This document shows, one piece after another, positions 8,850-35,946 of a stretch of DNA of 64,000 nt (within the stretch, counting starts at the first letter, position 1; each line of letters begins with the position of its first letter). The position numbers and the translations under genes are program-made. Location: NCBI GenBank assembly GCA_964465575.1, contig CAYXIF010000006.1, positions 14,445-78,444 on the forward strand. Reading direction: 5' to 3'. This stretch comes from an uncultured Candidatus Bathyarchaeia archaeon. Lineage in GTDB: Archaea; Thermoproteota; Bathyarchaeia; Bathyarchaeales; DTEX01. Under the pieces are notes generated by a model, which ran no database searches, was not told where the DNA came from, and worked only from the letters and a program-made list of their open reading frames with translations.

Positions 8850-9422
8850 CTATTCGAAGGCCAAACGCGAGAGGGAGTAGTAGACGATCTCGCCTCTTCT
8901 GTTCAGGACGGACAGGATGAGCGTCTTTTTCTGGCTTTGCACATGCGTGAGGATCTGGGCTAGATCCTCGACTGTAACCGGTTGTCCTTCCCGGATTCCA
9001 AGGACCAAATAGTCTGCGGTAGACTTGCCGTATTCGCCTCTCTTGTAGACCCGGAAATCGATGCCCAGGCCGAATCCTTCACGAACGACGTAGCCCCTGC
9101 TTCGGAGGTCTCGGTATATGAGGTATCTTGCCCAAGCGTCTACATGCACTGAGCGAGACTTCTCAAGGAGTTCCTGAAATGTGAGGTTCCTGTCGGCTTT
9201 CTCGTCCCAGACTTCGACTATACCCTTGCTCATAAGATACAAAGCTTCGTAGAAGGTTAGGACAAGGTTTCCATCCTTTGGAGTTCCATACCCCCTAGAA
9301 GAGAGACCTTCGACATCTTCTGACGGAGGAACAAAGACGCCGCCCTCCTTTGGAACAGCCTTGATGATGACCTTCTCTTCTTCCTTCTCCTCGACTTCCT
9401 TGTCTTCATCTTCGGCCTGCAT
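8850..9422 (-). CDS. endA: tRNA-splicing endonuclease
   Basis: 190 aa with YLIYRDLRSRGYVVREGFGLGIDFRVYKRG, the catalytic-domain signature. Has an acidic N-terminal extension. Confidence 0.85.
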   Translation of the reverse strand: MQAEDEDKEVEEKEEEKVIIKAVPKEGGVFVPPSEDVEGLSSRGYGTPKDGNLVLTFYEALYLMSKGIVEVWDEKADRNLTFQELLEKSRSVHVDAWARYLIYRDLRSRGYVVREGFGLGIDFRVYKRGEYGKSTADYLVLGIREGQPVTVEDLAQILTHVQSQKKTLILSVLNRRGEIVYYSLSRLAFE

Positions 9423-13509: not shown

Positions 13510-13767
13510 TTGCCGCTTCACTTATTAGGGAGGAGTTTTCTAGTTTTGGTAGTCGCTGGGAAAGGATGTGTGAGTTTGCCCCAGCAGGTGAACTGTTACG
13601 ACTGTGGCGCAATCCTATACAAAGGTGAGGATCTAAAGTCTCCTGAAGAGATCCTTCAGATACACGAAGGGAAATGCCCCAAATGTGGAAAGAGGCTCTC
13701 TCTCATGCCTCAAGGAATAGATGTGAAGCCTGTCAAGGACAGGCCCGTTGAAAAGTACCCGAGATGA
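13510..13767 (+). CDS. Small zinc-ribbon protein (start uncertain)
   Basis: CYDCG...18 aa...CPKCG Cys4 ribbon. The true start is probably an internal GTG/TTG around 13549-13588. Immediately precedes acpS. Confidence 0.5.
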   Translation: MPLHLLGRSFLVLVVAGKGCVSLPQQVNCYDCGAILYKGEDLKSPEEILQIHEGKCPKCGKRLSLMPQGIDVKPVKDRPVEKYPR

Positions 13768-14167
13768 TGGGCGGGCACCTCTCATGTGGGATATCGGGGT
13801 TGACGTGGTCGAGGTCCAGAGGTTTAGGAGGCTCGACTACCCAAACCACAAGAGATTCTACAATCGAATCTTTACGCCACGGGAGATTGATTATTGCCTA
13901 TCGTTCAAGAACGCGGCGCAACATTTCGCTGCAACTTTCGCGGGGAAAGAATCCGTGTTTAAGGCAGTCAATCGTCACATCAGGGTTAAGCCTCGTGAAA
14001 TCGAAATCCTCAGGGACGGGGATGCCCCGCAAGTCAACCTAGTAAGAGGTCGCGTAGGCATGGCGGATACCGGTTCTCAAGTTGAGGTCAAGGTGAGTCT
14101 GTCTCATACACAATCCTACGCAATAGCCTTTGCACTTGCGAGGTTTGAGAAAGCAGGGCAGACCTAG
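13748..14167 (+). CDS. acpS: Holo-[acyl-carrier-protein] synthase (4'-phosphopantetheinyl transferase, AcpS type)
   Basis: IGVDVVEVQRFRRL, FTPREIDYC, FAATFAGKESVFKAV, EIEILRDGDAPQV and SLSHTQSYAIAF match the AcpS pattern. Likely start is ATG 13784. Confidence 0.8.
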   Translation: MKSTRDDGRAPLMWDIGVDVVEVQRFRRLDYPNHKRFYNRIFTPREIDYCLSFKNAAQHFAATFAGKESVFKAVNRHIRVKPREIEILRDGDAPQVNLVRGRVGMADTGSQVEVKVSLSHTQSYAIAFALARFEKAGQT

Positions 14168-14185
14168 GGTCCTACAAGGGGATGG

Positions 14186-16051
14186 TTGCAGACGACCTCT
14201 TGTTCAGGTATTGAGACCGATATAGATCTCCAGCTGAAAGAGATTCTCGATAAGGTTAGGAGGCAACCTAGTTACCTCAACTACTGGAACGCGTACAGAA
14301 GGATTCAAAGACTCAACCTTGCAGCGGCCAAGGTTCCGGAAGAGAAGAGGGTGATGATTGCCATCCTCAGCTCCTTCACCGTAGAGCCTCTCGTTATGTA
14401 CATTGACGTCGATTGTCGTCTCGTCGGTTTGGGCCCCCAGATATATGTAGCACCATTCAACCAGTACGCCCAAGAGATTCTAGACTCCACAAGCCAGCTG
14501 TACCGGTTTGGGCCCGACATCATCATAGTCATTGTCGAAGCAGAGCGGCTTCTTAGCGACAACTTCTTCCAGAACTTTCTCACGCTTTCTGACGAGCAGA
14601 AAAGGAACCTTCAGGCGGAAGTCATTGGGTATCTGAGAAGCCTGATTTCCAGGCTGGCAGAACAGACCAAGGCGCTCATACTCGTGAGCAATTTTGTGGT
14701 GCCATGGTTCTCCCCCCTGGGCGTTCTGGACAACAAGGTGAGCTTGGGCATTGGCGACTTCTTTGACGGGCTTGACAAGATGATTGCAGACCTCTACAGA
14801 GACAGTCGGCAAGTCTACATCGTCGACCTGGAGAATCTTGCAGGTCAACATGGCAAGTCTAGGTGCCTGAACTACGAAATGTACTATAGGGGAGCTGTGC
14901 TCTTCAGCGAGTCATTCTTTCCTGTCATCGCCAATGAATATATGGCGTACGTCAAGGCGCTCAAGAACATCGTAAGAAAATGCATTGTCCTGGACTTGGA
15001 CAATGTTCTTTGGGGAGGCATCCTAGGCGAAGACGGCTTCGACGGCATCAAGCTGGGCGCGGACCCTATTGGCAGAGCATACGTTGACTTCCAGAAGCTC
15101 CTTCTCTCTTACTACAACCGAGGCATTATCCTCGCCATAAACAGCAGGAACAACTATGGAGACTCAATCAGGGCTATCGCCGAACATCCAAACATGGTCC
15201 TTCGTGGCAAACACTTCGCAGCTATGAGGATCAACTGGAACGACAAAGTTGAGAACATGATCGCCCTCGCAAAGGAACTAAACATAGGCCTAGACAGCAT
15301 GGTGTTCGTGGACGACTCCCCCCAAGAACGCGAACGCATGAAACAGGCTTTGCCTCAGGTTCTCGTGGTGGATATGCCAAAATCTCCCTTCCACTACAGC
15401 GAGACTCTCCAGAGCTTGAAAGCCTTCGACACACTCGTCCTTTCCGAGGAGGACAAAAGACGCGGTGAGATGTACCATGCCGAGAGGAAACGCAGGGACC
15501 TTCTAGAGTCGAAGGGCAGCCTTGAAGACTTTCTTAGGTCGCTAGACATGAAGGCTGAGATAAGATACGCCAACAGCTTCACCATACCACGTATCACGAG
15601 CCTCATCAACAGAACGAACCAGTTCAACCTTGCAGCGCGACGGTACAACCAGGCCGAGGTTGAGGCAATGATCTCCCAATCACAAAGGTTTCTTGTTTAT
15701 AGCATGAAGGTCAGCGACCGGTTCGGAGACGAAGGAATAGTCGGCGTTGCCATCATCCGGAAGGAAGGACAAGAGTGGGTCATAGACTCCTTTCTCCTAA
15801 GCTGCCGGGTCATTGGTCGAGGGGCTGAAACGGCGCTCTTGGCCAAGACAGCGGACGACGCCAAAGCAAGCGGAGCGTCAGCCCTCATTGGGGAGTATAT
15901 CCCAACAGCGCGGAACGAGCCCGCAAAGTCCTTCTATAGTGATCACGGCTTCGACTTGGTGAAAGAAGACATGGCTGGCATGCGATGGAGGCTAGACCTC
16001 GAGAAGGCTACGGTTAAGACACCCGAATGGTTGAGTGTCACTTATGAATAG
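14186..16051 (+). CDS. FkbH-like protein (HAD-IIIC phosphatase domain plus C-terminal GNAT-like acyltransferase domain)
   Basis: 621 aa. HAD motif I VLDLDNVLWGGILGEDG, motif FVDDSPQERE, and a C-terminal GNAT-like fold (DRFGDEGIVGVAII...CRVIGRGAETALL). This is the domain order of FkbH-type glyceryl-ACP loaders. Confidence 0.8.
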   Translation: MQTTSCSGIETDIDLQLKEILDKVRRQPSYLNYWNAYRRIQRLNLAAAKVPEEKRVMIAILSSFTVEPLVMYIDVDCRLVGLGPQIYVAPFNQYAQEILDSTSQLYRFGPDIIIVIVEAERLLSDNFFQNFLTLSDEQKRNLQAEVIGYLRSLISRLAEQTKALILVSNFVVPWFSPLGVLDNKVSLGIGDFFDGLDKMIADLYRDSRQVYIVDLENLAGQHGKSRCLNYEMYYRGAVLFSESFFPVIANEYMAYVKALKNIVRKCIVLDLDNVLWGGILGEDGFDGIKLGADPIGRAYVDFQKLLLSYYNRGIILAINSRNNYGDSIRAIAEHPNMVLRGKHFAAMRINWNDKVENMIALAKELNIGLDSMVFVDDSPQERERMKQALPQVLVVDMPKSPFHYSETLQSLKAFDTLVLSEEDKRRGEMYHAERKRRDLLESKGSLEDFLRSLDMKAEIRYANSFTIPRITSLINRTNQFNLAARRYNQAEVEAMISQSQRFLVYSMKVSDRFGDEGIVGVAIIRKEGQEWVIDSFLLSCRVIGRGAETALLAKTADDAKASGASALIGEYIPTARNEPAKSFYSDHGFDLVKEDMAGMRWRLDLEKATVKTPEWLSVTYE

Positions 16052-16289
16052 CGCTGAGGAACAGCTTAGGGAAATCGTGGCAAAGGTTCTGCTTCTCAAG
16101 GAGTCTGAAGTGACGGATGCGATATCGCGGAAGGACACAGAGTCGTGGGACTCGCTGGCTCATTTGATGCTGGTAAACGAAGTCGAGGCCGCATTCAACG
16201 TCACACTCAGCGATGACGACATCGTCGAGTTGAAAACGGTTGGCGAGCTAAAACAGAAGCTTAGGAACCTTGGTGTCCAGATCCACTGA
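16044..16289 (+). CDS. Acyl carrier protein
   Basis: 81 aa from ATG 16044 (8-nt overlap with the FkbH stop). Phosphopantetheine-attachment motif WDSLAHLMLVNEVEAAF. Confidence 0.8.
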   Translation: MNSAEEQLREIVAKVLLLKESEVTDAISRKDTESWDSLAHLMLVNEVEAAFNVTLSDDDIVELKTVGELKQKLRNLGVQIH

Positions 16290-16295
16290 CGTTAC

Positions 16296-16730
16296 TCACT
16301 TAAGCTTTGTTATTGCTCTAGCGGGGTGACCGCCGACCATTGTGTACGGAGGGACGTCTCTGCCTACAATTGAGCCGGCAGTCACAATGGCTCCTTCACC
16401 GATCGAGACTCCTGGCAGAACGATTGAGCCGGCAGCTATCCAAGCACCTCGGCCAATCTTGACGCTTTTTGGTTCTTCGTGATAGAGTTTCAGCCGCTGG
16501 TGGAAGGGGCTTGCGCCTGAGTGCGCCATTATGATTACCCCCGGGCCGATGCTGGCTTCGTCCTCGATCTCAATATACTCTGGATATTCTCCGTCGACCA
16601 TGACGAGGAACCCTACATAGACTCTCTCCCCTACCCTTACTCCGCATCTTCTGAGCATACTGCTTCTGAACTGGTAGAAAGGAGAAACCCAAGCGAGTAT
16701 ACGAAGGAGTCTGCCTATGAGTTTGCCCAT
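16296..16730 (-). CDS. Hexapeptide-repeat (left-handed beta-helix) acyl/acetyltransferase
   Basis: 144 aa with repeated [LIV]G-x4 hexapeptides (IGPGVIIMAHSG, IGRGAWIAAGSIVLPGVSIGEGAIVTAGSIV) and a C-terminal PPYTMVGGHPAR. Confidence 0.8.
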   Translation of the reverse strand: MGKLIGRLLRILAWVSPFYQFRSSMLRRCGVRVGERVYVGFLVMVDGEYPEYIEIEDEASIGPGVIIMAHSGASPFHQRLKLYHEEPKSVKIGRGAWIAAGSIVLPGVSIGEGAIVTAGSIVGRDVPPYTMVGGHPARAITKLK

Positions 16731-16757
16731 AATGGGTAAGTATGTGGCTTAACCGCC

Positions 16758-17612
16758 TTAAAAGAGTCGTGTAAAGTACTCAAGGTAAGTGAAGTTGTCG
16801 ATGTCTCCGGTCAGCAAGCAACAGAAGGCAGCACCATCTTTCCACTCACCATGCCTTAGCCAGTGCTCAACAGCGTCTGTGACAACTGGAAACCATCCGT
16901 TCAGCTCTGCCCCATAAGAAAGTATCTGTTTTAGCACGTCGATGTACTGAGGTTGCCCTATCCTTATTGGGTGAAGGTCTAGCATTATGACACCGTGTTG
17001 CTTCTCAGTCTCTCTTAGCGCTCGCCTCAAGATCCTCGCCATTTCAACGGCATTCAGCCTCTGGATGTCGATCATCCTATCATCAGACCACTCGTAGAGT
17101 GGGATGCAGACGAATCTTGAATCGTGACCTTCAACGGGAACCCTAAAGAAACTCCGCCTTTCCCTGTACTTATCCTGAAACCCTAGACCCGCGTCCCAAA
17201 GGAATTCGAATTTCTCCAGCAAGATAGGGAGCTGGGCTGGGCATATGTTGTAAGGAGCTCTAAACCCTCGTATCGGGGTCTTCAAGCTTCTGAAGGCAAG
17301 AAGGCTTCTCGCAATGTCCCATTCTTGTGCCTCAGAAGATAGGTAACTGTAGTTCACGTGATTGAAGCCGTGGGATGCTACTTCCTGACCGAAATTCGTG
17401 ATCAAGCGGACTAGCCCAGTGTTTCTGAGAGCCGCGGAGGCAATGATGGGGAAAGTGAAACCCGCATGGTAGGCCTCAATAACCTCCAAAATGTTCTCAA
17501 GAAGCTTTCTGAAAGGCGTCCTGTGGAATTTCGCCATTCGGAAAGCTTGATGTATGAGAAAGGCTCTTCTCTCTTTCCAAAGGTATCTGACCCAGCCGGT
17601 TCTGATAGGCAT
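16758..17612 (-). CDS. Polysaccharide deacetylase (NodB/CE4-like) family protein
   Basis: 284 aa. FTFPIIASAL...ASHGFNHVNY histidine motif and overall NodB-like pattern. Start may be internal (MAKFHRTPF). Confidence 0.7.
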   Translation of the reverse strand: MPIRTGWVRYLWKERRAFLIHQAFRMAKFHRTPFRKLLENILEVIEAYHAGFTFPIIASAALRNTGLVRLITNFGQEVASHGFNHVNYSYLSSEAQEWDIARSLLAFRSLKTPIRGFRAPYNICPAQLPILLEKFEFLWDAGLGFQDKYRERRSFFRVPVEGHDSRFVCIPLYEWSDDRMIDIQRLNAVEMARILRRALRETEKQHGVIMLDLHPIRIGQPQYIDVLKQILSYGAELNGWFPVVTDAVEHWLRHGEWKDGAAFCCLLTGDIDNFTYLEYFTRLF

Positions 17613-17634
17613 CTAGGGTCGCTCACTGGTCTTC

Positions 17635-18159
17635 CTACGGGCTCTGTGCCTTTTCCTCTAGGAATTCCACCAAGTAACCATCGGGTGTGTATATGAAAGC
17701 TATCCTTTGTCCATTGTAGAGTCTAGCTGGTGATGGTCCAGATACTACGATAGCTTTCTGCTTTCTAGCCTTCTTGAGGGTCGACTCGATGTCGTCGACC
17801 GAATAGCAAAGATGGTAAAGGTGCATCCCTTTCTTCAGAAGATTCCGAATGGGTGACTGGTCACCTAGTGGAGCCACCAGCTCGATCGGGATACCTGGGC
17901 TTCTTTGGTCTGACATCAAGATCAATGACACCTTCTGTAAAGGATCTTCGACAATGGTAGAGATTCGATTTAGCCCGAAGAGTTCCTCGTGTTGCCGTAT
18001 TGATCTTTCCAGGTTGTTTGAGGCTATTCCAATATGGTGCAGCTTCACGAGACTCACCCAGAACCACCTAACCATTGCTGAGCCTGTTCTTATAAGCAAG
18101 TCGGTTGGCAACTTAGCTTCGCAGCTGGACCATAAACTAAATATAACCGGTAAAGGCAT
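17635..18159 (-). CDS. VOC (glyoxalase/dioxygenase) family protein, methylmalonyl-CoA epimerase-like
   Basis: LHHIGIASNNLERSI...IELVAPLGDQSPIRNLLKKG..LYHLCYSVDDI...GYLVEFLEE. Likely start is the internal Met at 18078. Confidence 0.7.
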   Translation of the reverse strand: MPLPVIFSLWSSCEAKLPTDLLIRTGSAMVRWFWVSLVKLHHIGIASNNLERSIRQHEELFGLNRISTIVEDPLQKVSLILMSDQRSPGIPIELVAPLGDQSPIRNLLKKGMHLYHLCYSVDDIESTLKKARKQKAIVVSGPSPARLYNGQRIAFIYTPDGYLVEFLEEKAQSP

Positions 18160-18177
18160 CGATAAGGAAGGAGACTC

Positions 18178-20442
18178 GTGATGAAGTTCAGAGAGAAACT
18201 GAGCATAAGGACTGTCGCTTCAGGTTTAGAAAAGGCTCAGATCCTGCGTCCAAAGGTGTCACACGCTTCTTTGGTCAAGGGCTCTCTGATTGTCATCATC
18301 TTGGTCATAGCCTTTTCCGTCAGGCTGTTGCCAATCCGTTGGGGATATTACTTGTCCGAGTTTGACCCACACTATCAGTATCGCCACACAAAGTACATAG
18401 TTGAAAATGGACTTCTAGGCGACAAGGGATGGGTTTCGTGGCACGACTATCTGAGCTGGTACCCTTGGGGAAACAAGATGTCTCGCACTTCATACTTGGG
18501 ACTTCCATTAACTGCCGCGGCAATGTACCTTGTTCTGCGTGCGTTGGGGGTTCCTATTGTTTCAGGTCCGAGTCTTGATCCTCTACAGTCCGACCCCGTG
18601 TACGTCTTCGTTGTTCTCTTTCCTGCATTAATGGGCACGGTCACTTGCCTTGTGATGTACTTCCTCGGCAAGGACTTGGCCGGAGACTCGGCTGGGTTGT
18701 TTGCGGCTCTCTTCTTGGCGTTGGACTCAGCCTACATTGGGCGGACGTCTCTGGGGTTTTTCGACGACGAAACTGTTGGGATATTCAGCATATTGCTCTA
18801 CATACTCTGCTTCCTTAGATCACTCGACGAGAGAAAGCCCTTAAGAGCTGGCTTGATGTACTCAGTGGCAGCTGGGCTTTCTTTGGGTTACTTATGTGGT
18901 TCATGGGGCGCATCACGTTACCCCGTCGTCATGACCGCATTGTTTGCTCTCATTCTGCTGGCGTCACGAAGGTATTCCTTTCGTTTGCTCCTGTCATACG
19001 GCATAACGTTCCTTCTTGCGCTTCCAATAGCTGCGAGCGTTCCTTACGTTGGAACTGGTTGGCTTCTTGAATTTGAAGTTCTCTCAGTCTATGGAGCCTT
19101 CTTTCTGCTGTGTGTCTCGGAGGTTAACCACCGCGTGAAAACCACAAGCCAGAAACTGATCATGTTAGCCATTCTGATAGGTCTAGTGGCGGGGGGCTTC
19201 GGCTTTCTTTGGTGGAGAGGGATGATAAGAGGGCTTGAGACAAAGTTCTTGTCGGTGCTCAACCCGTTTGTGCGCTTCGAGGTGCCCATTGTAGAGTCTG
19301 TTGCCGAGCACAGACCATCCTCTTGGGGAACATTCTACTATAACTTTGGGATGGGCGTCTTCTTTGTACCTGTAGGTCTCTTCTTCGCGGCCATGATGGC
19401 TACGAACACAAGTCTCTTTATGATCATATATGGTTTGACCTCAGTCTTCTTTGCCAGTTCGATGATAAGGCTGAACATCATAATGTCTCCTGTCATAAGT
19501 CTACTCTGGGCATTGGCTCTGGTGCGCATTCTGAAACCCTTTGTCTTGTTCTTGAGAGAAGCTCCGCAGACTCCTCCGCGAAAGGCTTGGCAATACCGGT
19601 TCGTCGGAAAAGAGACCTCCGCGGGGATTGTGCTTTTGATGTTCATTCTACTTGCATTGACATACGTTGTTGGCCCAGATTTCATCGCAGGACCACAGTC
19701 TCAGGGACCCAAAGTCTACACTCAGGCATTCTCCCCTACTACTGTCGCTTCAGCTAGTCTCTCCGCAAAGCCCTCTGATATTGTTCGTGACTGGCTTGAC
19801 ACCTTGATCTGGATGCGCGAGAATTTGCCGGCCTCACCTGAGAGGCCCGGCGAACCGGGAACAGTTGTTGCCAGCTGGTGGGACTACGGATACTGGATTA
19901 CTACGATTGCGAACAGGACATCTCTTGCAGACAACGGCACTTGGAACTGGACGCAGATAGAGCAGATAGGTCTCATGTTCATGTCTAACGAGACTGAGGC
20001 AGTAAAGATACTCAAGAGATACAATGTTACCCATGTTCTAGTATTCGTAACCTTCGATACGCAGGGAAGGCTCATCATGGCAGGCGGCGACGAGGGGAAG
20101 TGGGAATGGATGGCGAAGATCCCTGGCCTGGACGAGAAAGTGTTCGGCAACCACACGCTTGGTTGGGACTGGGTAGATGTCAATCGCAATGGCCGAGGTT
20201 TTGACGATTATGGCCAACCCGAGCCCGGTGAGATATCGCAGAACACTAGGGGCCAAGAGACTGTTCTCTTCAAGCTCATGTACTATGGCAGGGAAGCGAC
20301 TCTGCAGGGCTATTCCAACCTCCTACTGGAATACTTTGAGGAGGCCCACTTCTCTCAGACATTTGGCTCTCCGAAACCGGCCCCGGGGACTTCTTACATT
20401 CCTCTTGTCTGCGTCTATAAGGTCAATTACCCGCAAGAGTGA
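18178..20442 (+). CDS. aglB: Dolichyl-phosphooligosaccharide-protein glycosyltransferase AglB (STT3 homolog)
   Basis: 754 aa, 13 or so TM segments, catalytic WWDYGYW motif, EFDPHYQYRH first-loop motif. TATA-like AAATATAA at 18139-18146. Confidence 0.92.
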   Translation: MMKFREKLSIRTVASGLEKAQILRPKVSHASLVKGSLIVIILVIAFSVRLLPIRWGYYLSEFDPHYQYRHTKYIVENGLLGDKGWVSWHDYLSWYPWGNKMSRTSYLGLPLTAAAMYLVLRALGVPIVSGPSLDPLQSDPVYVFVVLFPALMGTVTCLVMYFLGKDLAGDSAGLFAALFLALDSAYIGRTSLGFFDDETVGIFSILLYILCFLRSLDERKPLRAGLMYSVAAGLSLGYLCGSWGASRYPVVMTALFALILLASRRYSFRLLLSYGITFLLALPIAASVPYVGTGWLLEFEVLSVYGAFFLLCVSEVNHRVKTTSQKLIMLAILIGLVAGGFGFLWWRGMIRGLETKFLSVLNPFVRFEVPIVESVAEHRPSSWGTFYYNFGMGVFFVPVGLFFAAMMATNTSLFMIIYGLTSVFFASSMIRLNIIMSPVISLLWALALVRILKPFVLFLREAPQTPPRKAWQYRFVGKETSAGIVLLMFILLALTYVVGPDFIAGPQSQGPKVYTQAFSPTTVASASLSAKPSDIVRDWLDTLIWMRENLPASPERPGEPGTVVASWWDYGYWITTIANRTSLADNGTWNWTQIEQIGLMFMSNETEAVKILKRYNVTHVLVFVTFDTQGRLIMAGGDEGKWEWMAKIPGLDEKVFGNHTLGWDWVDVNRNGRGFDDYGQPEPGEISQNTRGQETVLFKLMYYGREATLQGYSNLLLEYFEEAHFSQTFGSPKPAPGTSYIPLVCVYKVNYPQE

Positions 20443-20519: not shown

Positions 20520-21095
20520 ATGTCTGAAACCGTCACGATTTCAGTCAAGGTTCCCAAGGAGATGTACGCTGAGCTAAGCATTCGAGTACCTGAAGGGGAA
20601 AGAAGCACATTCGTCAGAGACGCCATAATCGAGAAGTTTCAGAAAACTCCGAGTTCGAGCAGAATCCTTGAGTTGGAGCAGAGAATCCAGAGGATTGAGG
20701 CCGACGTCTCATTTATCAAAGGTTGCCTAGCTGAGCTCGAATTCTTAACGTTCGAAAGAGGCAAAGTCAACCCACACACATTCTGCGTCGATAAGACAGA
20801 CAACGACATCATGGATTACCTTGTCCACTACAAGGGTGCAACAACTGCCGAGATAGCCCAGGCATTGAATGTCAACAGATGGCTTGTACTAAACCGTCTG
20901 AAAAAAATCATGAGAAGATCGAAAAAGCAGCTCGGGAAACCTGTAGTAAGATACTTAGCAGCGGAAAAAACAGGCAAGAAGAAAGCATGGTGGCTAGACG
21001 AAGAACTGACAGAGGAAATACCCACTTCCCAAGGATCGGGGACTGCAGACAAGGTGGGCCCGTGGCCCAGACAGGATAAAGGCGTCGAGCCATAG
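20520..21095 (+). CDS. Putative transcriptional regulator (N-terminal ribbon-helix-helix, C-terminal winged HTH)
   Basis: 191 aa. CopG/RHH-like TISVKVPKEMYAELSIRVPEGERSTFVRDAIIEKF and a wHTH-like YKGATTAEIAQALNVNRWLVLNRLKKI. The last 40 nt overlap tRNA-Arg. Confidence 0.5.
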   Translation: MSETVTISVKVPKEMYAELSIRVPEGERSTFVRDAIIEKFQKTPSSSRILELEQRIQRIEADVSFIKGCLAELEFLTFERGKVNPHTFCVDKTDNDIMDYLVHYKGATTAEIAQALNVNRWLVLNRLKKIMRRSKKQLGKPVVRYLAAEKTGKKKAWWLDEELTEEIPTSQGSGTADKVGPWPRQDKGVEP

Positions 21096-31071: not shown

Positions 31072-31167
31072 GCTCCGGTAGTATAGTCCGGCCAAGTATT
31101 CCGGCCTTTCGACAGAGAAACTGGAAGAAAGCCGGAAACCCGGGTTCAAATCCCGGCCGGAGCACCA
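31072..31167 (+). tRNA. tRNA-Glu(UUC) with canonical-position 18-nt intron (about 31112-31129, after position 37); CCA encoded
   Basis: GCTCCGG-TA-GTATAGTCCGGCCAAGTAT-T-CCGGC-CTTTCG[ACAGAGAAACTGGAAGAA]A-GCCGG-AAAC-CCGGG-TTCAAAT-CCCGG-CCGGAGC-A-CCA. All stems are Watson-Crick after intron removal. Confidence 0.88.
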
Positions 31168-32460: not shown

Positions 32461-35400
32461 ATGTCTAAATCTAAGATAAGAAATTCTTCGAATACAAGTG
32501 GAGTTCATTCGTTTCGGACCATTGTAATCACAGCTCTCTTAGTGACTTCTTTGTTTGCTTCTTCACTAGCTTCTCTGATTGTAAACGTGAGCTATGCTCA
32601 GACGTTACAAGTGCCACACTATTTCGGTCCTTACCCCAACTACGCCACCAGCCAGCTCCCAACAGTAACTTATGATGGACTTGGCAACATTGTCAGTGTT
32701 ACAGGAGGAATCAGGAAATTCATAGACTCCCTACCACTGCTTGGACCCACGGGCGCAAACACGCCCCTCGGACAATACATACCAATTGCTGTCAAAGACA
32801 CAACAACGTATCTCGGGTCTGACTACTACGAAATCGCAGTAGTCGAATATTATCAACAGATGCATTCGGATTTGGCTCCCACCAGATTGAGAGGTTACGT
32901 TCAGTTGTGGACGTCAACTCTCCCGGGTACAGGGGTTCCACTGACGAATCTTAACGGAACTAACGCTACCCCAATTCTGATGCCCAACGGTGTTCAAGCA
33001 GTTGGCGTGGACATTCCCCGCTACCTCGGACCTTTCATCATGGCCGAAAAAGACCGCCCAGTGCGCGTCAAATTCTACAACTTATTACCTAAAGGCGCCG
33101 GAGGCGACCTCTTCATACCCGTCGACACCACCGTCATGGGATCAGGAATGGGTCCAATAGATATGCCCGGAATGCCTGGAATGAAAGAAAGCTATACGCA
33201 AAACAGAGCAACCCTGCACCTTCACGGCGGCCGCACACCATGGATCAGCGATGGCACTGCTCATCAATGGATAACACCTGCTGGAGAAGACACAGTGTAC
33301 CCCAAAGGAGTCAGTGTCTACAATGTTCCAGACATGCCTGACCCTGGCCCTGGAGCGATGACTTTCTTCTACACCAATCAGCAGAGCGCAAGGCTGATGT
33401 TCTACCACGACCACTCTTACGGGATCACCAGACTCAACGTATACGCCGGTGAAGCTGCAGGCTATCTTCTAACGGACAATATCGAAAAGGCTCTGATTGC
33501 AGATCTACTCATCCCAGCTGACCAGATTCCCTTGATAATACAAGACAAGACCTTTGTGCCAGACAACACAGTGCCAATAACTAACATGTGGGGAACCTTC
33601 TCGTCACAGCTTGCATTCCAGGATCCCACATGGGATACTACCATGTGGGGTGGACCTGGAAGTCTTTGGTATCCGCACGTTTACATGACGATGCAGAACC
33701 CAGGCGACCCGTCGGGAATGAACACCTTCGGACGATGGCAGTATGGTCCATGGTTCTGGCCTCCAACAGTAGTAGAGCAAGGACCGATACCGAACCCATA
33801 CTACCCAGGCGGACCGTTGTACAGCCCAACTTATCCATACAATCACTTGGAGCCGGCGATGATACCGGGAACACCCAACATCTCAATGCCAGGAGAAGCC
33901 TTCATGGACACCCCAGTCATCAACGGCATCGCCTATCCATACCTAGAAGTGGAACCAAAAGCCTACAGATTCCGCATCCTAAACGCCGCTGACGACCGAT
34001 TCTTCAACCTGCAGATATATGTTGCTGACAGCTCCGTCACCACCTTTGATGGAAGAACCAACACTGAAGTCAAAATGGTGCCCGCAGTCCTGACGCCAGG
34101 CTTTCCGGAGGGCTGGCCGACAGACGGAAGGGAAGGCGGCGTACCTGATCCAGCAACAGCTGGTCCGTCATTCATCCAAATCGGAAATGAAGGCGGCTTC
34201 CTACCAGCGCCAGTGGTGCTTCCAATGCAGCCTGTCGATTGGAACATGGATCAAGGAACCTTTGATTTCGGTCTGGTCAACAAATACACGCTTCTACTGG
34301 GAACTGCCGAACGTGCTGACGTAATCGTTGACTTCTCCGCATTTGCAGGCAAAACCCTCATCCTCTACAATGACTGTCCAGCACCAGTTCCAGCTTCCGA
34401 TCCACGCCAAGACTACTACACAGGAAAACCAGATCAGACAGATAGCGGCGGCTCCCCCACAACCATAGCTGGCTACGGGTCTAACACTCGAACAATAATG
34501 CAGATTCGAGTCGCTAACACACCTCCAGCAGCTCCATTTGATTTAGTAGCATTAGAGCAAGCTTTCGCCGCGGGCGTCTTCGCCCAATCACAAAACCCGA
34601 TCATAGTCCCGCAAGCTGCCTACGGTTCAGCCTATGGCACAACTTTCCCCGACGTCTACTCGAACATATTTGACAACTCGCTGACATTCACGCCAATAGA
34701 CTCGACAACGTCAGTGACCATTCCGTTCCAAGCAAAGGCTATCCAGGACGAGATGGGCGAAGCCTTCGACCATGTATACGGACGAATGGCCGTCCAGTTC
34801 GGACTCGAGTTGCCAAAGACACGAGCCCTGATGCAGACCACGCTGCTCTACAATTTTGGAGATCCACCCACCGAGATTGTCAAGACTTCAGTCGCTGGCA
34901 CTCAAATCGGAACGCTAGGCGACGGAACACAAATCTGGAAGATAACACACAACGGCGTCGACGTCCACACCGTACACTGGCACATGTTTGAAGTGCAGCT
35001 GATCAACCGAGTAGCATGGGACAACAACATAAGAATTCCTGACCCCAACGAGCTTGGCTGGAAAGAAACACTCAGAGTAAACCCACTTCAAGACACTATC
35101 GTGGCTCTGAGACCAATCGTTCCAGTCGTACCCTTCGACCTTCCAAACAGCGTTCGCCCGATTGACCCAACAATGCCTCTTGGCGCCACATTGAAGACGC
35201 AGAACATCTTCGACATCACAGGAGAACCGATAACCCTAACCAACCACTTAGTCAACTTCGGCTGGGAATACGCGTGGCACTGCCACATCTTAGCACATGA
35301 AGAGATGGACATGATGCGCCCGATAATAGTTGCAGTCCCGCCCAGAGCGCCAACCAATTTGGCCGTCAGTGTGCAAGGAAGAAGAGCAACTTTGACTTGG

Positions 35401-35946
35401 ACGGACAATTCCTTGAGCGAAACCAGTTTCACTATTGAGAGAGCAGAAAACACTGCCTTCACTATAGGATTAACGACCTTCACGGTAGGAGCGAACGTGC
35501 AAACATACACCGACAATAGCATCAAGAACAAACAGCTCTACTATTACAGGGTCAAAGCTACCAACCTCGTCGGTGACACGACAAAATACTCTCCTCCAGC
35601 AGTCGGCTTCCAAACAATGTCAGTTGACTCAGAACCCAGCAATGTGGCAATTATTGATGCAATCCCTGCGGCTCCTTCGAATCTTCAAGCAACTTCGCTA
35701 GTAGGCAGTGGCGTTGTGCAATTAGCATGGAACGACAATTCCGAAAATGAACAAGGCTTCCTGCTCCAAAGAGCGACCAACAAAGGTTTCAGCCAAAACT
35801 TGGTAACCATCACGCTAGGATCGAACACACACACGTATGTTGACACAACGGTTACACTAAACACGCGCTACTACTACAGGGTGCAAGCCTTCAATGCACT
35901 AGGAAACTCTGCATATTCCAACACTGCCAGCGTTATGCCGATCTAA
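32461..35946 (+). CDS. Secreted multicopper oxidase (laccase/bilirubin-oxidase-like) with two C-terminal fibronectin type III domains
   Basis: 1161 aa. N-terminal signal/anchor. Copper motifs TLHLHGG, FYHDHSYG, HTVHWHMFEVQ and WHCHILAHEEMDMM. Two FN3-like repeats (PRAPTNLAVSV...YYYRVKATN and PAAPSNLQATS...YYYRVQAFN). Confidence 0.9.
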   Translation: MSKSKIRNSSNTSGVHSFRTIVITALLVTSLFASSLASLIVNVSYAQTLQVPHYFGPYPNYATSQLPTVTYDGLGNIVSVTGGIRKFIDSLPLLGPTGANTPLGQYIPIAVKDTTTYLGSDYYEIAVVEYYQQMHSDLAPTRLRGYVQLWTSTLPGTGVPLTNLNGTNATPILMPNGVQAVGVDIPRYLGPFIMAEKDRPVRVKFYNLLPKGAGGDLFIPVDTTVMGSGMGPIDMPGMPGMKESYTQNRATLHLHGGRTPWISDGTAHQWITPAGEDTVYPKGVSVYNVPDMPDPGPGAMTFFYTNQQSARLMFYHDHSYGITRLNVYAGEAAGYLLTDNIEKALIADLLIPADQIPLIIQDKTFVPDNTVPITNMWGTFSSQLAFQDPTWDTTMWGGPGSLWYPHVYMTMQNPGDPSGMNTFGRWQYGPWFWPPTVVEQGPIPNPYYPGGPLYSPTYPYNHLEPAMIPGTPNISMPGEAFMDTPVINGIAYPYLEVEPKAYRFRILNAADDRFFNLQIYVADSSVTTFDGRTNTEVKMVPAVLTPGFPEGWPTDGREGGVPDPATAGPSFIQIGNEGGFLPAPVVLPMQPVDWNMDQGTFDFGLVNKYTLLLGTAERADVIVDFSAFAGKTLILYNDCPAPVPASDPRQDYYTGKPDQTDSGGSPTTIAGYGSNTRTIMQIRVANTPPAAPFDLVALEQAFAAGVFAQSQNPIIVPQAAYGSAYGTTFPDVYSNIFDNSLTFTPIDSTTSVTIPFQAKAIQDEMGEAFDHVYGRMAVQFGLELPKTRALMQTTLLYNFGDPPTEIVKTSVAGTQIGTLGDGTQIWKITHNGVDVHTVHWHMFEVQLINRVAWDNNIRIPDPNELGWKETLRVNPLQDTIVALRPIVPVVPFDLPNSVRPIDPTMPLGATLKTQNIFDITGEPITLTNHLVNFGWEYAWHCHILAHEEMDMMRPIIVAVPPRAPTNLAVSVQGRRATLTWTDNSLSETSFTIERAENTAFTIGLTTFTVGANVQTYTDNSIKNKQLYYYRVKATNLVGDTTKYSPPAVGFQTMSVDSEPSNVAIIDAIPAAPSNLQATSLVGSGVVQLAWNDNSENEQGFLLQRATNKGFSQNLVTITLGSNTHTYVDTTVTLNTRYYYRVQAFNALGNSAYSNTASVMPI

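What the first reader, a model, noticed from the sequence alone, without database searches (positions are those of the whole stretch)
13510..20442. ACP-dependent acyl-loading module (AcpS + FkbH-like + ACP) with an LbH acyltransferase and a NodB deacetylase, placed against aglB in an archaeon
Seen in sequence: acpS, an FkbH-type HAD-IIIC/GNAT protein and a DSL-motif ACP form a tightly packed, partly overlapping operon. FkbH and ACP overlap by 8 nt. Converging on it are a hexapeptide-repeat acyltransferase, a CE4/NodB deacetylase and a VOC epimerase-like gene, and the N-glycosylation oligosaccharyltransferase aglB follows divergently.
Established knowledge: archaea generally lack ACP and AcpS. 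FkbH enzymes convert 1,3-bisphosphoglycerate to glyceryl-S-ACP. LbH enzymes such as LpxA and LpxD use acyl-ACP donors. NodB enzymes remove N-acetyl groups from GlcNAc-type sugars.
Inference: the set looks like a self-contained pathway that deacetylates an amino sugar and re-acylates it with an ACP-borne glyceryl or hydroxyacyl unit. This would be a modification of the AglB-transferred N-glycan or another surface glycan. I do not know of such a pathway described for archaea.
Basis: partly seen in the sequence, partly recalled or inferred. Interest (0 to 1): 0.75.

Follow-up and report, generated by a model that had tools for sequence, protein, structure and literature searches.

The report
Archaeal carrier-protein sugar-acylation gene cassette
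A Bathyarchaeia genome carries, next to its N-glycosylation enzyme AglB, a conserved six-gene cassette that most likely strips the acetyl group from an amino sugar and replaces it with a glycerate-derived acyl group carried on an acyl carrier protein, a cofactor that almost all archaea lack.

Summary
Window 13.5-20.4 kb encodes AcpS, a three-domain FkbH-like enzyme, an 81-aa ACP, a short hexapeptide-repeat (LbH) acyltransferase, a CE4 deacetylase, a VOC (methylmalonyl-CoA-epimerase-like) protein and AglB. They sit among archaeal housekeeping genes of a Bathyarchaeia contig, so this is not a chimera.

All catalytic motifs are conserved. AcpS-FkbH-ACP plus LbH-CE4 is kept in 13 of 15 related Bathyarchaeia loci. 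AglB lies within 9 kb in 6 of 16 (window included), in at least three different gene orders; most other loci have sugar-biosynthesis genes nearby.

A low-GC marine lineage has the same gene set (CE4, LbH, FkbH, ACP, VOC or MaoC, AcpS) with a non-orthologous CE4, inside large glycan islands. One Bathyarchaeia variant lacks CE4. It has an aminotransferase route and a NeuD/PglD-like N-acyltransferase instead, which points to a sugar amine as acceptor.

The Bathyarchaeia CE4 appears circularly permuted, with its Asp motif at the C-terminus.

The chemistry is inferred and was not tested. The closest precedent is the N-(di-O-methylglyceroyl) pseudaminic acid of Campylobacter jejuni, whose locus holds an fkbH-domain gene. 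I found no description in archaea. It is a new variant of known kinds, of moderate to high interest.

The parts
13510..13767 (+). Small zinc-ribbon protein (CxxC...CxxC). The likely true start is the GTG at 13570, giving 65 aa. It is probably co-transcribed with acpS but is not a core cassette member.
   Evidence: It has only weak Zn-ribbon hits. Orthologues of 63-66 aa occur only in loci where TopA is also adjacent (L001, L003, L007) and are absent from other cassette contexts. The start was refined from the sequence.
13748..14167 (+). AcpS-type 4'-phosphopantetheinyl transferase (holo-ACP synthase). The likely start is the ATG at 13784, giving 127 aa.
   Evidence: PF01648 scores 63 bits (cut-off 25) and TIGR00556 scores 75.3 bits (cut-off 45.35). 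The D...E...K active-site pattern is conserved in 35 homologues. It lies adjacent to FkbH in 13 of 15 Bathyarchaeia loci.
14186..16051 (+). FkbH-like loading enzyme with three domains: FkbH_N (about residues 55-255), a HAD-IIIC phosphatase (about 262-410) and a GNAT-fold domain (about 421-621) carrying an invariant Cys.
   Evidence: TIGR01686 scores 314.5 bits against a cut-off of 146.65. PDB 3slr matches residues 55-421 at E=1e-50. D270-x-D272, S320, K354, D376 and S539-C540-R541-x-x-G-x-G are invariant. The AF2 model has pLDDT 83.8. Its C-terminal domain matches GNAT acetyltransferases.
16035..16289 (+). Stand-alone acyl carrier protein. The likely start is the ATG at 16044 (81 aa), which overlaps the FkbH stop by 8 nt.
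   Evidence: PF00550 scores 31.3 bits against a cut-off of 20.8. The Ser of the W-D-S-L motif is invariant in 65 homologues. It follows FkbH directly in nearly every locus that has room.
16296..16730 (-). Short (144 aa) left-handed beta-helix acyltransferase. It is the proposed transferase that moves the ACP-borne acyl group onto the sugar.
   Evidence: Hexapep E=2e-11. The best named matches (heptaprenylglyceryl-P O-acetyltransferase, WcaF, maltose and galactoside O-acetyltransferases) are all below their cut-offs. The nearest PDB sequence is 3hjj at E=1.5e-15. The A-H-S histidine is conserved. Related LbH genes (70-85 bits) are linked to FkbH in the marine lineage.
16758..17612 (-). CE4 (NodB-fold) deacetylase of a small, probably circularly permuted subfamily. 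It is predicted to be cytoplasmic.
   Evidence: PF01522 scores 42 bits against a cut-off of 23. The AF2 model has pLDDT 93. Foldseek TM is about 0.7 to PuuE, 1z7a, 3rxz and HP0310, and ArnD is also hit. H81, H85, R118-x-P-Y121, H214-P215 and the C-terminal G269-D270-x-D272 are invariant across sequences of 20-44% identity. Only 525 of 1.84 billion representatives match at E<=1e-3.
17635..18159 (-). VOC-superfamily metalloenzyme resembling methylmalonyl-CoA epimerase. The likely start is the GTG at 18048 (about 137 aa). It is proposed to tailor the ACP-bound acyl group.
   Evidence: Glyoxalase_4 E=6e-19. TIGR03081 scores 60.7 bits, below its cut-off of 115. The H/E/H/E metal ligands are conserved in 32 homologues. 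It is present in 8 of 15 Bathyarchaeia loci. In marine loci it alternates with a MaoC dehydratase at the same position.
18178..20442 (+). AglB/STT3 oligosaccharyltransferase, divergent from the VOC gene across a spacer of about 130 nt that holds a TATA-like AAATATAA.
   Evidence: STT3 E=1e-36 and AglB_core-like. WWDYG and a DK-type motif (DEGKWEWM) are present. It is adjacent to the cassette in L001, L003 and L007, and in other gene orders in L088 and L091. The spacer sequence is shown.

Best explanation
This is a cytoplasmic, ACP-dependent sugar-acylation module that feeds the cell-surface glycan pathway, most likely the N-glycan transferred by AglB.

Proposed steps:
1. AcpS converts apo-ACP to holo-ACP using CoA.
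2. The FkbH-like enzyme captures 1,3-bisphosphoglycerate as an acyl-enzyme on Cys540. Its HAD domain (D270/D272) removes the 3-phosphate. The GNAT-fold domain then hands the glyceryl group to the phosphopantetheine thiol of the ACP.
3. The VOC enzyme modifies the ACP-bound glyceryl thioester at C2, by epimerisation or an enediolate-type isomerisation or dehydration. In the marine lineage a MaoC dehydratase can take this place.
4. The CE4 enzyme removes the N-acetyl group from an acetamido sugar on a nucleotide or dolichol carrier.
5. The LbH transferase moves the acyl group from ACP onto the freed amine.
6. The finished lipid-linked glycan is flipped and transferred to protein by AglB.

Shown here: the gene content, intact catalytic motifs, the folds, conserved linkage across two deep lineages, and the glycan-gene context. 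Inferred: the substrate of FkbH, the VOC reaction, the LbH donor and acceptor, and the N-glycan as the final destination.
For: - Family, motif and fold evidence exists for each enzyme.
- Linkage in 15 Bathyarchaeia loci: ACP 15, AcpS 13, LbH 13, CE4 13, VOC 8.
- The same six functions recur in a marine low-GC lineage at about 40% FkbH identity, with a different CE4 subfamily (PF01522+DUF3473), in 13 of 13 loci with room.
- L006 lacks the CE4 and the cassette LbH. It has DegT, Gfo/Idh/MocA and a NeuD/PglD-like LbH directly upstream of AcpS, a route that makes a free sugar amine without a deacetylase.
- Glycan context: AglB lies within 9 kb in the window, L001, L003, L007, L088 and L091, in at least three gene orders. 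Glycosyltransferases of several Pfam families (including an AglH-like Glycos_transf_4), UDP-sugar dehydrogenases, epimerases and nucleotidyltransferases lie nearby in L006, L089, L090, L092 and L093.
- No protein has a signal peptide or transmembrane segment in its sequence, which fits an ACP-dependent cytoplasmic step (read from the sequences).
- Chemical precedent: C. jejuni 11168 makes 5-N-(2,3-di-O-methylglyceroyl)-pseudaminic acid. Cj1295 is proposed to remove the 5-acetamido group first, and the locus holds the fkbH-domain gene cj1302.
Against: - The LbH's nearest characterised relatives use acetyl-CoA and are mostly O-acetyltransferases. Nothing in the sequence shows acyl-ACP use.
- No FkbH-like enzyme from a glycan locus has been characterised in the literature I could search, so 1,3-bisphosphoglycerate as substrate is an extrapolation from polyketide pathways.
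- AglB is adjacent in only 6 of 16 Bathyarchaeia loci. Some cassettes (L005, L010) lie among unrelated genes.
- VOC is missing next to about half of the cassettes.
- CE4 enzymes can also be O-deacetylases.
- No glycan structure is known for Bathyarchaeia.
Confidence: 0.55

Rival explanations
1. The cassette O-acylates a sugar or lipid hydroxyl instead of N-acylating an amine. The LbH transfers the ACP-borne (or even CoA-borne) acyl group onto an OH. The CE4 then acts as an esterase or editing enzyme, or on a different substrate.
For: The LbH's best sequence relatives are O-acetyltransferases: maltose and galactoside O-acetyltransferases, WcaF, WbbJ and heptaprenylglyceryl-phosphate O-acetyltransferase. 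Related loci couple FkbH-ACP to a DltB-like MBOAT, which is an O-acylation machine. CE4 includes acetylxylan esterases.
Against: CE4 is paired with LbH in two lineages using non-orthologous CE4 genes. L006 swaps CE4 for an aminotransferase route plus a NeuD/PglD-like N-acyltransferase. The only chemically defined glycerate-derived sugar acyl group is an amide.
Confidence: 0.2
2. FkbH-ACP-AcpS and LbH-CE4 are two independent functions that merely share a glycan island. LbH and CE4 handle acetyl groups with acetyl-CoA. The ACP-borne product goes to another acceptor, such as a lipid head group or a small metabolite.
For: All LbH family matches are to acetyl-CoA enzymes. Many lower-identity loci have FkbH-ACP with neither LbH nor CE4, for example the soil type VOC-FkbH-ACP.
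Against: No other acyltransferase, ketosynthase or condensation enzyme lies in or next to the Bathyarchaeia cassette to use the acyl-ACP. LbH-CE4 sits immediately next to FkbH-ACP in 13 of 15 Bathyarchaeia loci and in 13 of 13 marine loci with room, although the flanks differ.
Confidence: 0.13
3. The cassette is a secondary-metabolite starter module for tetronate, methoxymalonyl or NRPS-type glycerate incorporation, as for classical FkbH enzymes.
For: All published FkbH-like enzymes I could find act in polyketide or non-ribosomal peptide pathways.
Against: No PKS, NRPS, FabH-like, FkbK/FkbI-type dehydrogenase or O-methyltransferase partner lies in the window or in the related Bathyarchaeia loci. 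The surroundings are housekeeping or glycan genes.
Confidence: 0.04
4. The cluster is bacterial DNA mis-assembled or mis-binned into an archaeal contig.
For: ACP and AcpS are typical of bacteria. One CE4 orthologue (P0127) is labelled Latescibacteria in NCBI.
Against: GC is flat across the cluster. Archaeal core genes lie on both sides. The identical block TopA-Zn-ribbon-AcpS-FkbH-ACP-LbH-CE4-VOC-AglB occurs in independent assemblies. The cassette is present in a 1.56-Mb Ca. Bathyarchaeum contig. More than 120 orthologue clusters exist. The Bathyarchaeia FkbH sequences form one clade in a neighbour-joining tree.
Confidence: 0.01

Closest known systems
FkbH/OzmB-type glyceryl-ACP loading (methoxymalonyl-ACP and tetronate pathways, NRPS FkbH domains)
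   Same: It passes the TIGR01686 cut-off. It has the HAD DxD motif, a GNAT-fold C-terminal domain with an invariant Cys before an RxxGxG loop, and a dedicated stand-alone ACP encoded immediately downstream (PMC7489565; PMC8949500).
   Different: There are no downstream dehydrogenase, methyltransferase, FabH-like, PKS or NRPS partners. The partners here are an LbH transferase, a CE4 deacetylase and a VOC enzyme. The context is glycan biosynthesis in an archaeon. The activity was not tested.
Campylobacter jejuni NCTC 11168 flagellin glycan: 5-N-(2,3-di-O-methylglyceroyl) pseudaminic acid (Cj1295; fkbH-domain gene cj1302)
   Same: A glycerate-derived acyl group is amide-linked to an amino sugar of a protein-linked glycan. 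The proposed logic is 'remove the N-acetyl group, then add the new acyl group'. The glycosylation locus contains an fkbH-domain gene.
   Different: The proposed deacetylase there is an aminopeptidase-like protein, not a CE4. The sugar is a nonulosonic acid on an O-glycan. The organism is a bacterium. The role of cj1302 is not shown in the papers I read, and I could not retrieve its sequence for comparison.
Nod-factor assembly (NodB deacetylase, NodA N-acyltransferase, NodF ACP, NodL LbH O-acetyltransferase)
   Same: A CE4 de-N-acetylates a GlcNAc-type sugar, which is then N-acylated from a dedicated acyl-ACP. An LbH transferase of the LacA/NodL type belongs to the same system (established knowledge, from memory).
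   Different: The N-acyltransferase there is NodA, not an LbH, and the acyl group is a fatty acid made by NodE/NodF. The NodB equivalog TIGR04243 scores 27 bits against a cut-off of 240. The CE4 here is a different, probably permuted subfamily.
Lipid A LpxA / LpxC / LpxD
   Same: The logic matches: de-N-acetylation followed by N-acylation from acyl-ACP by an LbH enzyme (established knowledge).
   Different: The LpxA and LpxD models score only 25-34 bits against cut-offs above 200. The deacetylase LpxC has a different fold. The acyl groups are 3-hydroxy fatty acids.
Dlt D-alanylation system (DltC carrier protein, DltB MBOAT)
   Same: Sister loci couple the same FkbH-ACP-AcpS set to a DltB-like MBOAT (TIGR04091, 167 bits, below its cut-off of 375) and an AlgX/SGNH protein. 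This implies transfer from a carrier protein to an extracytoplasmic polymer.
   Different: The window's cassette has no MBOAT. The loading enzyme is FkbH-like, not an adenylating DltA. The acyl group is not D-alanine.
ArnD (CE4 deformylase acting on undecaprenyl-phosphate-linked Ara4FN)
   Same: It has the CE4 fold and acts on the cytoplasmic face on a polyprenyl-phosphate-linked N-acylated amino sugar. It is a structural hit for the model (8t0j).
   Different: The structural similarity is weak (TM 0.55, 12% identity). It is a deformylase, and no re-acylation follows.

Membership tests
FkbH family (TIGR01686) | Profile score above the curated cut-off | tested here: met
   314.5 bits against a cut-off of 146.65. 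HAD-IIIC TIGR01681 scores 57.8 against 35.75.
FkbH family (TIGR01686) | HAD phosphatase motif I (DxDx[TV]) and motifs II-IV | tested here: met
   D270-L-D272-N-V, S320, K354 and D376 are invariant in 30-38 sequences down to 40% identity.
FkbH family (TIGR01686) | C-terminal acyl-transfer domain with a conserved cysteine (the acyl-enzyme site; the role of the Cys is recalled from the OzmB literature) | tested here: met
   S539-C540-R541 is invariant. The domain has a GNAT fold, and the Cys sits just before the RxxGxG loop. I could not test equivalence to the OzmB catalytic Cys because no reference sequence was available.
FkbH family (TIGR01686) | Dedicated carrier protein partner | tested here: met
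   An ACP gene follows directly in 15 of 15 Bathyarchaeia loci and in most of the 76 other loci.
FkbH family (TIGR01686) | Converts 1,3-bisphosphoglycerate to glyceryl-S-ACP | not testable with these tools
   This needs an enzyme assay.
Acyl carrier protein (PF00550) | Profile above cut-off and a phosphopantetheine-attachment serine | tested here: met
   31.3 bits against 20.8. The Ser of the W-D-S-L motif is invariant in 65 sequences. FAS-type AcpP equivalogs are not met (27-34 bits against cut-offs of 66-106).
AcpS-type phosphopantetheinyl transferase (PF01648 / TIGR00556) | Profile above cut-off, a single domain of about 120-130 aa, and acidic Mg ligands | tested here: met
   63 bits against 25 and 75.3 against 45.35. 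The G-x-D and K-E-x-x-x-K patterns are conserved. The stricter acpS equivalog TIGR00516 scores 54.7 against 59.8, just below its cut-off.
CE4 / NodB-fold deacetylase (PF01522) | Profile above cut-off and the (beta/alpha) barrel fold | tested here: met
   42.1 bits against 23.1. The AF2 model has pLDDT 93. Foldseek gives E=1e-10 and TM about 0.7 to CE4-fold structures.
CE4 / NodB-fold deacetylase (PF01522) | Five catalytic motifs in the canonical order, with the Asp motif (TFDD) at the N-terminus | tested here: not met
   There is no acidic strand before the FTFP strand. An invariant G-D270-x-D272 follows the last strand at the C-terminus instead. The His-His, R-x-P-Y and L-H-P motifs are in the normal order. 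I read this as a circular permutation. Two alignment tests of that reading were uninformative.
NodB chitooligosaccharide deacetylase (TIGR04243) | Equivalog score above cut-off | tested here: not met
   27.1 bits against a cut-off of 240.
LpxA / LpxD acyl-ACP-dependent LbH acyltransferases | Equivalog score above cut-off | tested here: not met
   NF003657 (LpxA) scores 33.6 bits against 226. No LpxD match appears among the best 25.
Maltose/galactoside/WcaF-type LbH O-acetyltransferases | Equivalog or subfamily score above cut-off; catalytic His | tested here: inconclusive
   These are the best matches but all fall below their cut-offs (70.3 against 192; 54.9 against 314; 51.2 against 347). PDB 3hjj matches at E=1.5e-15. 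A conserved A-H-S His is present.
Methylmalonyl-CoA epimerase (TIGR03081) | Equivalog score above cut-off | tested here: not met
   60.7 bits against 114.95. VOC superfamily membership is met (PF13669, 68.8 bits against 27), and the H/E/H/E ligands are conserved.
Archaeal oligosaccharyltransferase AglB (STT3) | STT3 profile, WWDYG motif and DK motif | tested here: met
   PF02516 scores 127.6 bits against 24.5. WWDYGYW and DEGKWEWM are present. The archaeosortase-A-associated subfamily TIGR04154 is not met (140 bits against 450).

The most novel reading that the evidence does not exclude
Bathyarchaeia, and a marine low-GC lineage that carries an archaeal-type AglB, keep ACP and AcpS not for fatty-acid synthesis but as a dedicated donor system. 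It would decorate amino sugars of their protein N-glycans with glycerate-derived N-acyl groups. A CE4 permuted in sequence order would open the amine. Alternative VOC or MaoC enzymes would diversify the acyl group on the carrier (for example L-glyceroyl, or 2-hydroxyacryloyl, pyruvoyl or lactoyl). This would be the first ACP-dependent glycan-tailoring pathway in archaea, and a new class of N-acyl substituents on archaeal N-glycans.
Probability: 0.4. Interest if true: 0.75.

Novelty: new variant of a known kind. Interest (0 to 1): 0.6.

Why it matters
ACP and its synthase are reported as absent from nearly all archaea (PMC3533463; bioRxiv 2024.07.05.601840). Here they are conserved across a whole archaeal class, tied to surface-glycan genes, and with no fatty-acid synthase around them. 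This gives a concrete, testable reason for their presence.

The finding predicts a specific chemical signature on Bathyarchaeia glycoproteins: an amino-sugar residue 46.005 Da heavier than HexNAc if the acyl group is glyceroyl. It also assigns a role to a widespread but uncharacterised FkbH-ACP-LbH/MBOAT cassette found in marine and soil microbes. It could explain the genetics behind the glyceroyl-type N-acyl sugars known from Campylobacter. Finally, it flags a small CE4 subfamily with an apparently permuted catalytic motif order.

Tried and rejected
- Chimera or contamination: rejected.
- Secondary-metabolite module: rejected for lack of PKS, NRPS or FabH partners.
- LpxA/LpxD or NodB membership: tested and not met.
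- Circular permutation of the CE4: I moved the C-terminal 30 residues to the front and re-scored. Pfam gave 42.4 against 42.1 bits with the same profile span. hhalign against the canonical marine CE4 family gave 73.1 against 73.7. Neither test gained or lost, so both are uninformative. The permutation rests on motif conservation and the predicted strand.
- Literature: searches for FkbH combined with polysaccharide, O-antigen, archaea, Bathyarchaeota or HAD-IIIC found no description of this cassette. One search was wasted by a loose term setting, and one failed on syntax.
- The Vibrio cholerae O1 tetronate/ACP/LbH precedent that I recalled could not be documented.
- Lombard et al. 2012 is not held in the library. 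A companion review was used instead.
- The taxon of the marine low-GC loci could not be established. No names were returned, and only an archaeal-type AglB in L031 hints at archaea.
- The Cj1302 sequence could not be fetched for direct comparison.
- The neighbour-joining tree has no support values and no taxonomy, so the direction of any inter-domain transfer remains open.

Full report
**What is there.** The interval 13.5-20.4 kb holds eight closely packed genes.

On the + strand:
- a small zinc-ribbon protein (13510/13570-13767);
- AcpS (13748-14167, probable start 13784);
- a 621-aa FkbH-like protein (14186-16051);

Converging on the - strand:
- a 144-aa hexapeptide-repeat (LbH) acyltransferase (16296-16730);
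- a 284-aa CE4 deacetylase (16758-17612);
- a VOC protein (17635-18159, probable start 18048).

AglB (18178-20442, +) is divergent from the VOC gene. The spacer is about 130 nt and carries a TATA-like AAATATAA.

Family matches are strong:
- FkbH TIGR01686: 314.5 bits (cut-off 146.65).
- AcpS TIGR00556: 75.3 bits (cut-off 45.35).
- ACP PF00550: 31.3 bits (cut-off 20.8).
- CE4 PF01522: 42.1 bits (cut-off 23.1).
- VOC PF13669: 68.8 bits.
- STT3: 127.6 bits.

**Organism and integrity.** The closest genomic relatives are Bathyarchaeia MAGs with 64-70% FkbH identity. The flanks encode archaeal topoisomerase I, TFB, class I LysRS, HisRS, tRNA-intron endonuclease and aIF-2B. GC is flat at about 0.50. 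The block HisRS-endonuclease-aIF2B-TopA-Zn-ribbon-AcpS-FkbH-ACP-LbH-CE4-VOC-AglB recurs in an independent assembly (L007), and in part in L001 and L003. The exact FkbH protein occurs on six contigs of up to 79 kb. A chimeric bacterial insert is excluded.

**Are the proteins competent?**

FkbH-like:
- Residues 55-421 match the B. fragilis BF1531 structure 3slr, which covers the N-terminal domain and the HAD domain (E=1e-50).
- HAD motifs (D270-x-D272, S320, K354, D376) and S539-C540-R541-x-x-G-x-G are invariant down to 40% identity.
- The AF2 model (pLDDT 83.8) has a C-terminal GNAT fold (TM 0.6-0.77 to GNAT acetyltransferases).
- The invariant Cys lies at the end of a strand, just before the pantetheine-pyrophosphate loop. 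That is where an acyl group would sit next to an incoming phosphopantetheine arm.

ACP: the Ser of the W-D-S motif is invariant in 65 homologues.

AcpS and VOC: the AcpS acidic and Lys residues and the VOC H/E/H/E metal ligands are conserved.

LbH: an A-H-S histidine is conserved.

CE4:
- The model is confident (pLDDT 93) and matches CE4-fold structures (PuuE, 1z7a, 3rxz, 3s6o, HP0310; also ArnD).
- H81, H85, R118-x-P-Y121 and H214-P215 are invariant.
- The usual N-terminal Asp motif is missing.
- An invariant (T/S)-G-D270-x-D272 follows the last beta-strand at the C-terminus. It is invariant even in relatives of 20-44% identity and resembles the N-terminal L-L-G-I-D-F-E-D strand of canonical relatives.
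- I read this as a circular permutation. Two alignment-based tests were uninformative.
- The subfamily is small: 525 of 1.84 billion representatives match at E<=1e-3, and 6 at E<=1e-30.

**Is it a unit?** FkbH orthologues of 52-100% identity form more than 120 clusters, named Bathyarchaeota where any name is given. I surveyed 93 fetched loci with the window's proteins.

Among 15 Bathyarchaeia-type loci:
- ACP follows FkbH in 15.
- AcpS precedes it in 13; the other two have less than 800 bp of upstream sequence.
- LbH and CE4 are adjacent in 13.
- VOC is adjacent in 8.

A separate clade at about 40% identity, from low-GC (24-34%) marine contigs, has the order CE4(-) LbH(-) | FkbH ACP (VOC or MaoC) AcpS. 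Its CE4 is a canonical-order PF01522+DUF3473 protein that is not detectably orthologous to the Bathyarchaeia CE4. It sits beside the LbH in 13 of 13 loci with room. The same six functions thus recur with a displaced CE4, which argues that deacetylation is integral to the pathway.

Other relatives replace or add to the LbH with a DltB-like MBOAT and an AlgX/SGNH protein. That arrangement is Dlt-like and again implies a carrier-protein acyl donor. Soil-type loci keep VOC-FkbH-ACP inside exopolysaccharide-type clusters.

**Link to glycans.** AglB lies within 9 kb of the cassette in the window, L001, L003, L007, L088 and L091, which is 6 of 16 loci. It occurs in at least three different gene orders. 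That is hard to ascribe to chance for what I assume is a single-copy gene.

Other Bathyarchaeia loci place the cassette beside DegT aminotransferases, Gfo/Idh/MocA oxidoreductases, UDP-sugar dehydrogenases, epimerases, nucleotidyltransferases and an asparagine-synthase-like amidotransferase. Glycosyltransferases of Pfam families Glycos_transf_1, Glycos_transf_2 and Glycos_transf_4 (the last AglH-like) are there too. This enzyme set is typical of 2,3-diamino-uronic-acid sugar pathways; that reading rests on my own knowledge.

The marine cassettes lie in large glycan islands. One of them (L031) carries an AglB with a DK-type motif.

Two loci (L005, L010) show little glycan context, so the association is frequent but not universal.

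**Acceptor.** Locus L006 lacks both the CE4 and the cassette-type LbH. Directly upstream of AcpS-FkbH-ACP-VOC it has DegT, Gfo/Idh/MocA and an LbH whose best family is the NeuD/PglB/VioB sugar N-acetyltransferases. That route produces a free sugar amine without needing a deacetylase. Together with the CE4 recurrence, this favours N-acylation of an amino sugar.

Against this, the window's LbH is closest to acetyl-CoA-dependent O-acetyltransferases and to a lipid-acting heptaprenylglyceryl-phosphate O-acetyltransferase, all below their cut-offs. It is not an LpxA/LpxD relative. O-acylation therefore remains a live rival.

None of the proteins has a signal peptide or membrane span in its sequence. 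This fits a cytoplasmic step on a nucleotide- or dolichol-linked sugar.

**Mechanism proposed.**
1. AcpS activates the ACP.
2. The FkbH-like enzyme loads a glyceryl unit from 1,3-bisphosphoglycerate, as in characterised FkbH/ACP pairs (PMC7489565; PMC8949500).
3. The VOC enzyme tailors the thioester at C2. It resembles methylmalonyl-CoA epimerase but scores 60.7 bits against a cut-off of 115. MaoC is the alternative in marine loci.
4. The CE4 enzyme exposes the amine.
5. The LbH transfers the acyl group.
6. AglB later transfers the glycan to protein.

Only the gene content, motifs, folds and linkage are shown. Every chemical step is inferred. My confidence in the overall model is about 0.55.

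**Comparison with what is known.** The loading half is a member of the FkbH/ACP family. The logic of deacetylation followed by acyl-ACP-dependent N-acylation is that of Nod factors (NodB/NodA/NodF) and lipid A (LpxC/LpxD). However, membership of NodB, LpxA and LpxD was tested and not met.

The nearest chemical precedent is C. jejuni NCTC 11168. Its flagellin carries 5-N-(2,3-di-O-methylglyceroyl)-pseudaminic acid. Cj1295 is proposed to remove the 5-acetamido group first, and the glycosylation locus contains the fkbH-domain gene cj1302. I found no paper linking FkbH-like genes to glycans beyond that remark, and none on archaea.

ACP and AcpS are reported absent from nearly all archaea. Their class-wide conservation here, without any fatty-acid synthase genes nearby, is notable. 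In a neighbour-joining tree the Bathyarchaeia FkbH sequences form one clade, sister to the marine and other low-GC group (no support values). This fits one old acquisition rather than repeated recent transfers, but the direction of transfer is unresolved.

**Verdict.** It is a new variant built from known families: an ACP-dependent amino-sugar re-acylation cassette in archaea, with a probably permuted CE4 and alternative VOC or MaoC tailoring. Interest is 0.6. The key uncertainty is biochemical.

Noticed in passing
window 16758-17612 (-): The CE4 deacetylase seems circularly permuted. The Asp motif, normally on the first strand, is an invariant G-D-x-D after the last strand at the C-terminus. 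The subfamily is tiny: 525 of 1.84 billion representatives match at E<=1e-3.
   Followed up: yes
window 13510-13767 (+) and 20520-21095 (+): Two conserved proteins of unknown function flank the cassette-AglB block. One is a 65-aa zinc-ribbon protein upstream of acpS. The other is a 191-aa protein with a weak sigma-70/HTH-like C-terminal match downstream of aglB. Both recur in L001 and L007, and the zinc-ribbon protein also in L003. Neither recurs in other cassette contexts.
   Followed up: partly
L013-L040, L092, L093 (marine low-GC contigs): VOC and MaoC dehydratase occupy the same slot between ACP and AcpS and are almost mutually exclusive. This suggests alternative tailoring of the same ACP-bound acyl group. 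L017 has both, each with its own ACP.
   Followed up: partly
L004; L017, L019, L022, L024, L031, L032, L037, L055: Some FkbH-ACP cassettes are coupled to a DltB-like MBOAT. In L004 there is also an AlgX/SGNH protein and a methyltransferase. This looks like a Dlt-type system that exports a non-D-alanine acyl group to an extracytoplasmic polymer.
   Followed up: partly
P0127 (CE4 orthologue, 64% identity): This protein is labelled 'Latescibacteria bacterium DG_63' in NCBI. It belongs to the Bathyarchaeia cassette family, and its cluster shares a 42,367-bp contig length with an FkbH orthologue. The contig is probably mis-binned.
   Followed up: no
window 31072-31167 (+): The tRNA-Lys(UUU) gene is 96 nt long, so it probably contains an intron. 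This fits the tRNA-splicing endonuclease gene at 8850-9422 (-).
   Followed up: no
window 41365-43242 (-): A second GT-C-type glycosyltransferase (PMT_2/ArnT-like, 625 aa) lies about 21 kb downstream of aglB.
   Followed up: no
window 50646-55271 (-): A 1541-aa protein combines a peptidase M28/nicastrin-like domain with MacB-type periplasmic core and FtsX permease domains. This is an unusual fusion.
   Followed up: no
window 32461-35946 (+): A 1161-aa protein has only weak fn3 and multicopper-oxidase-like hits. It is a likely surface protein and therefore a candidate N-glycosylation substrate.
   Followed up: no
L093 17607-18733: The same marine glycan island holds a second carrier-protein gene next to a short-chain dehydrogenase and a PIG-L-type deacetylase. 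This may be a second, different deacetylate-and-acylate pair.
   Followed up: no
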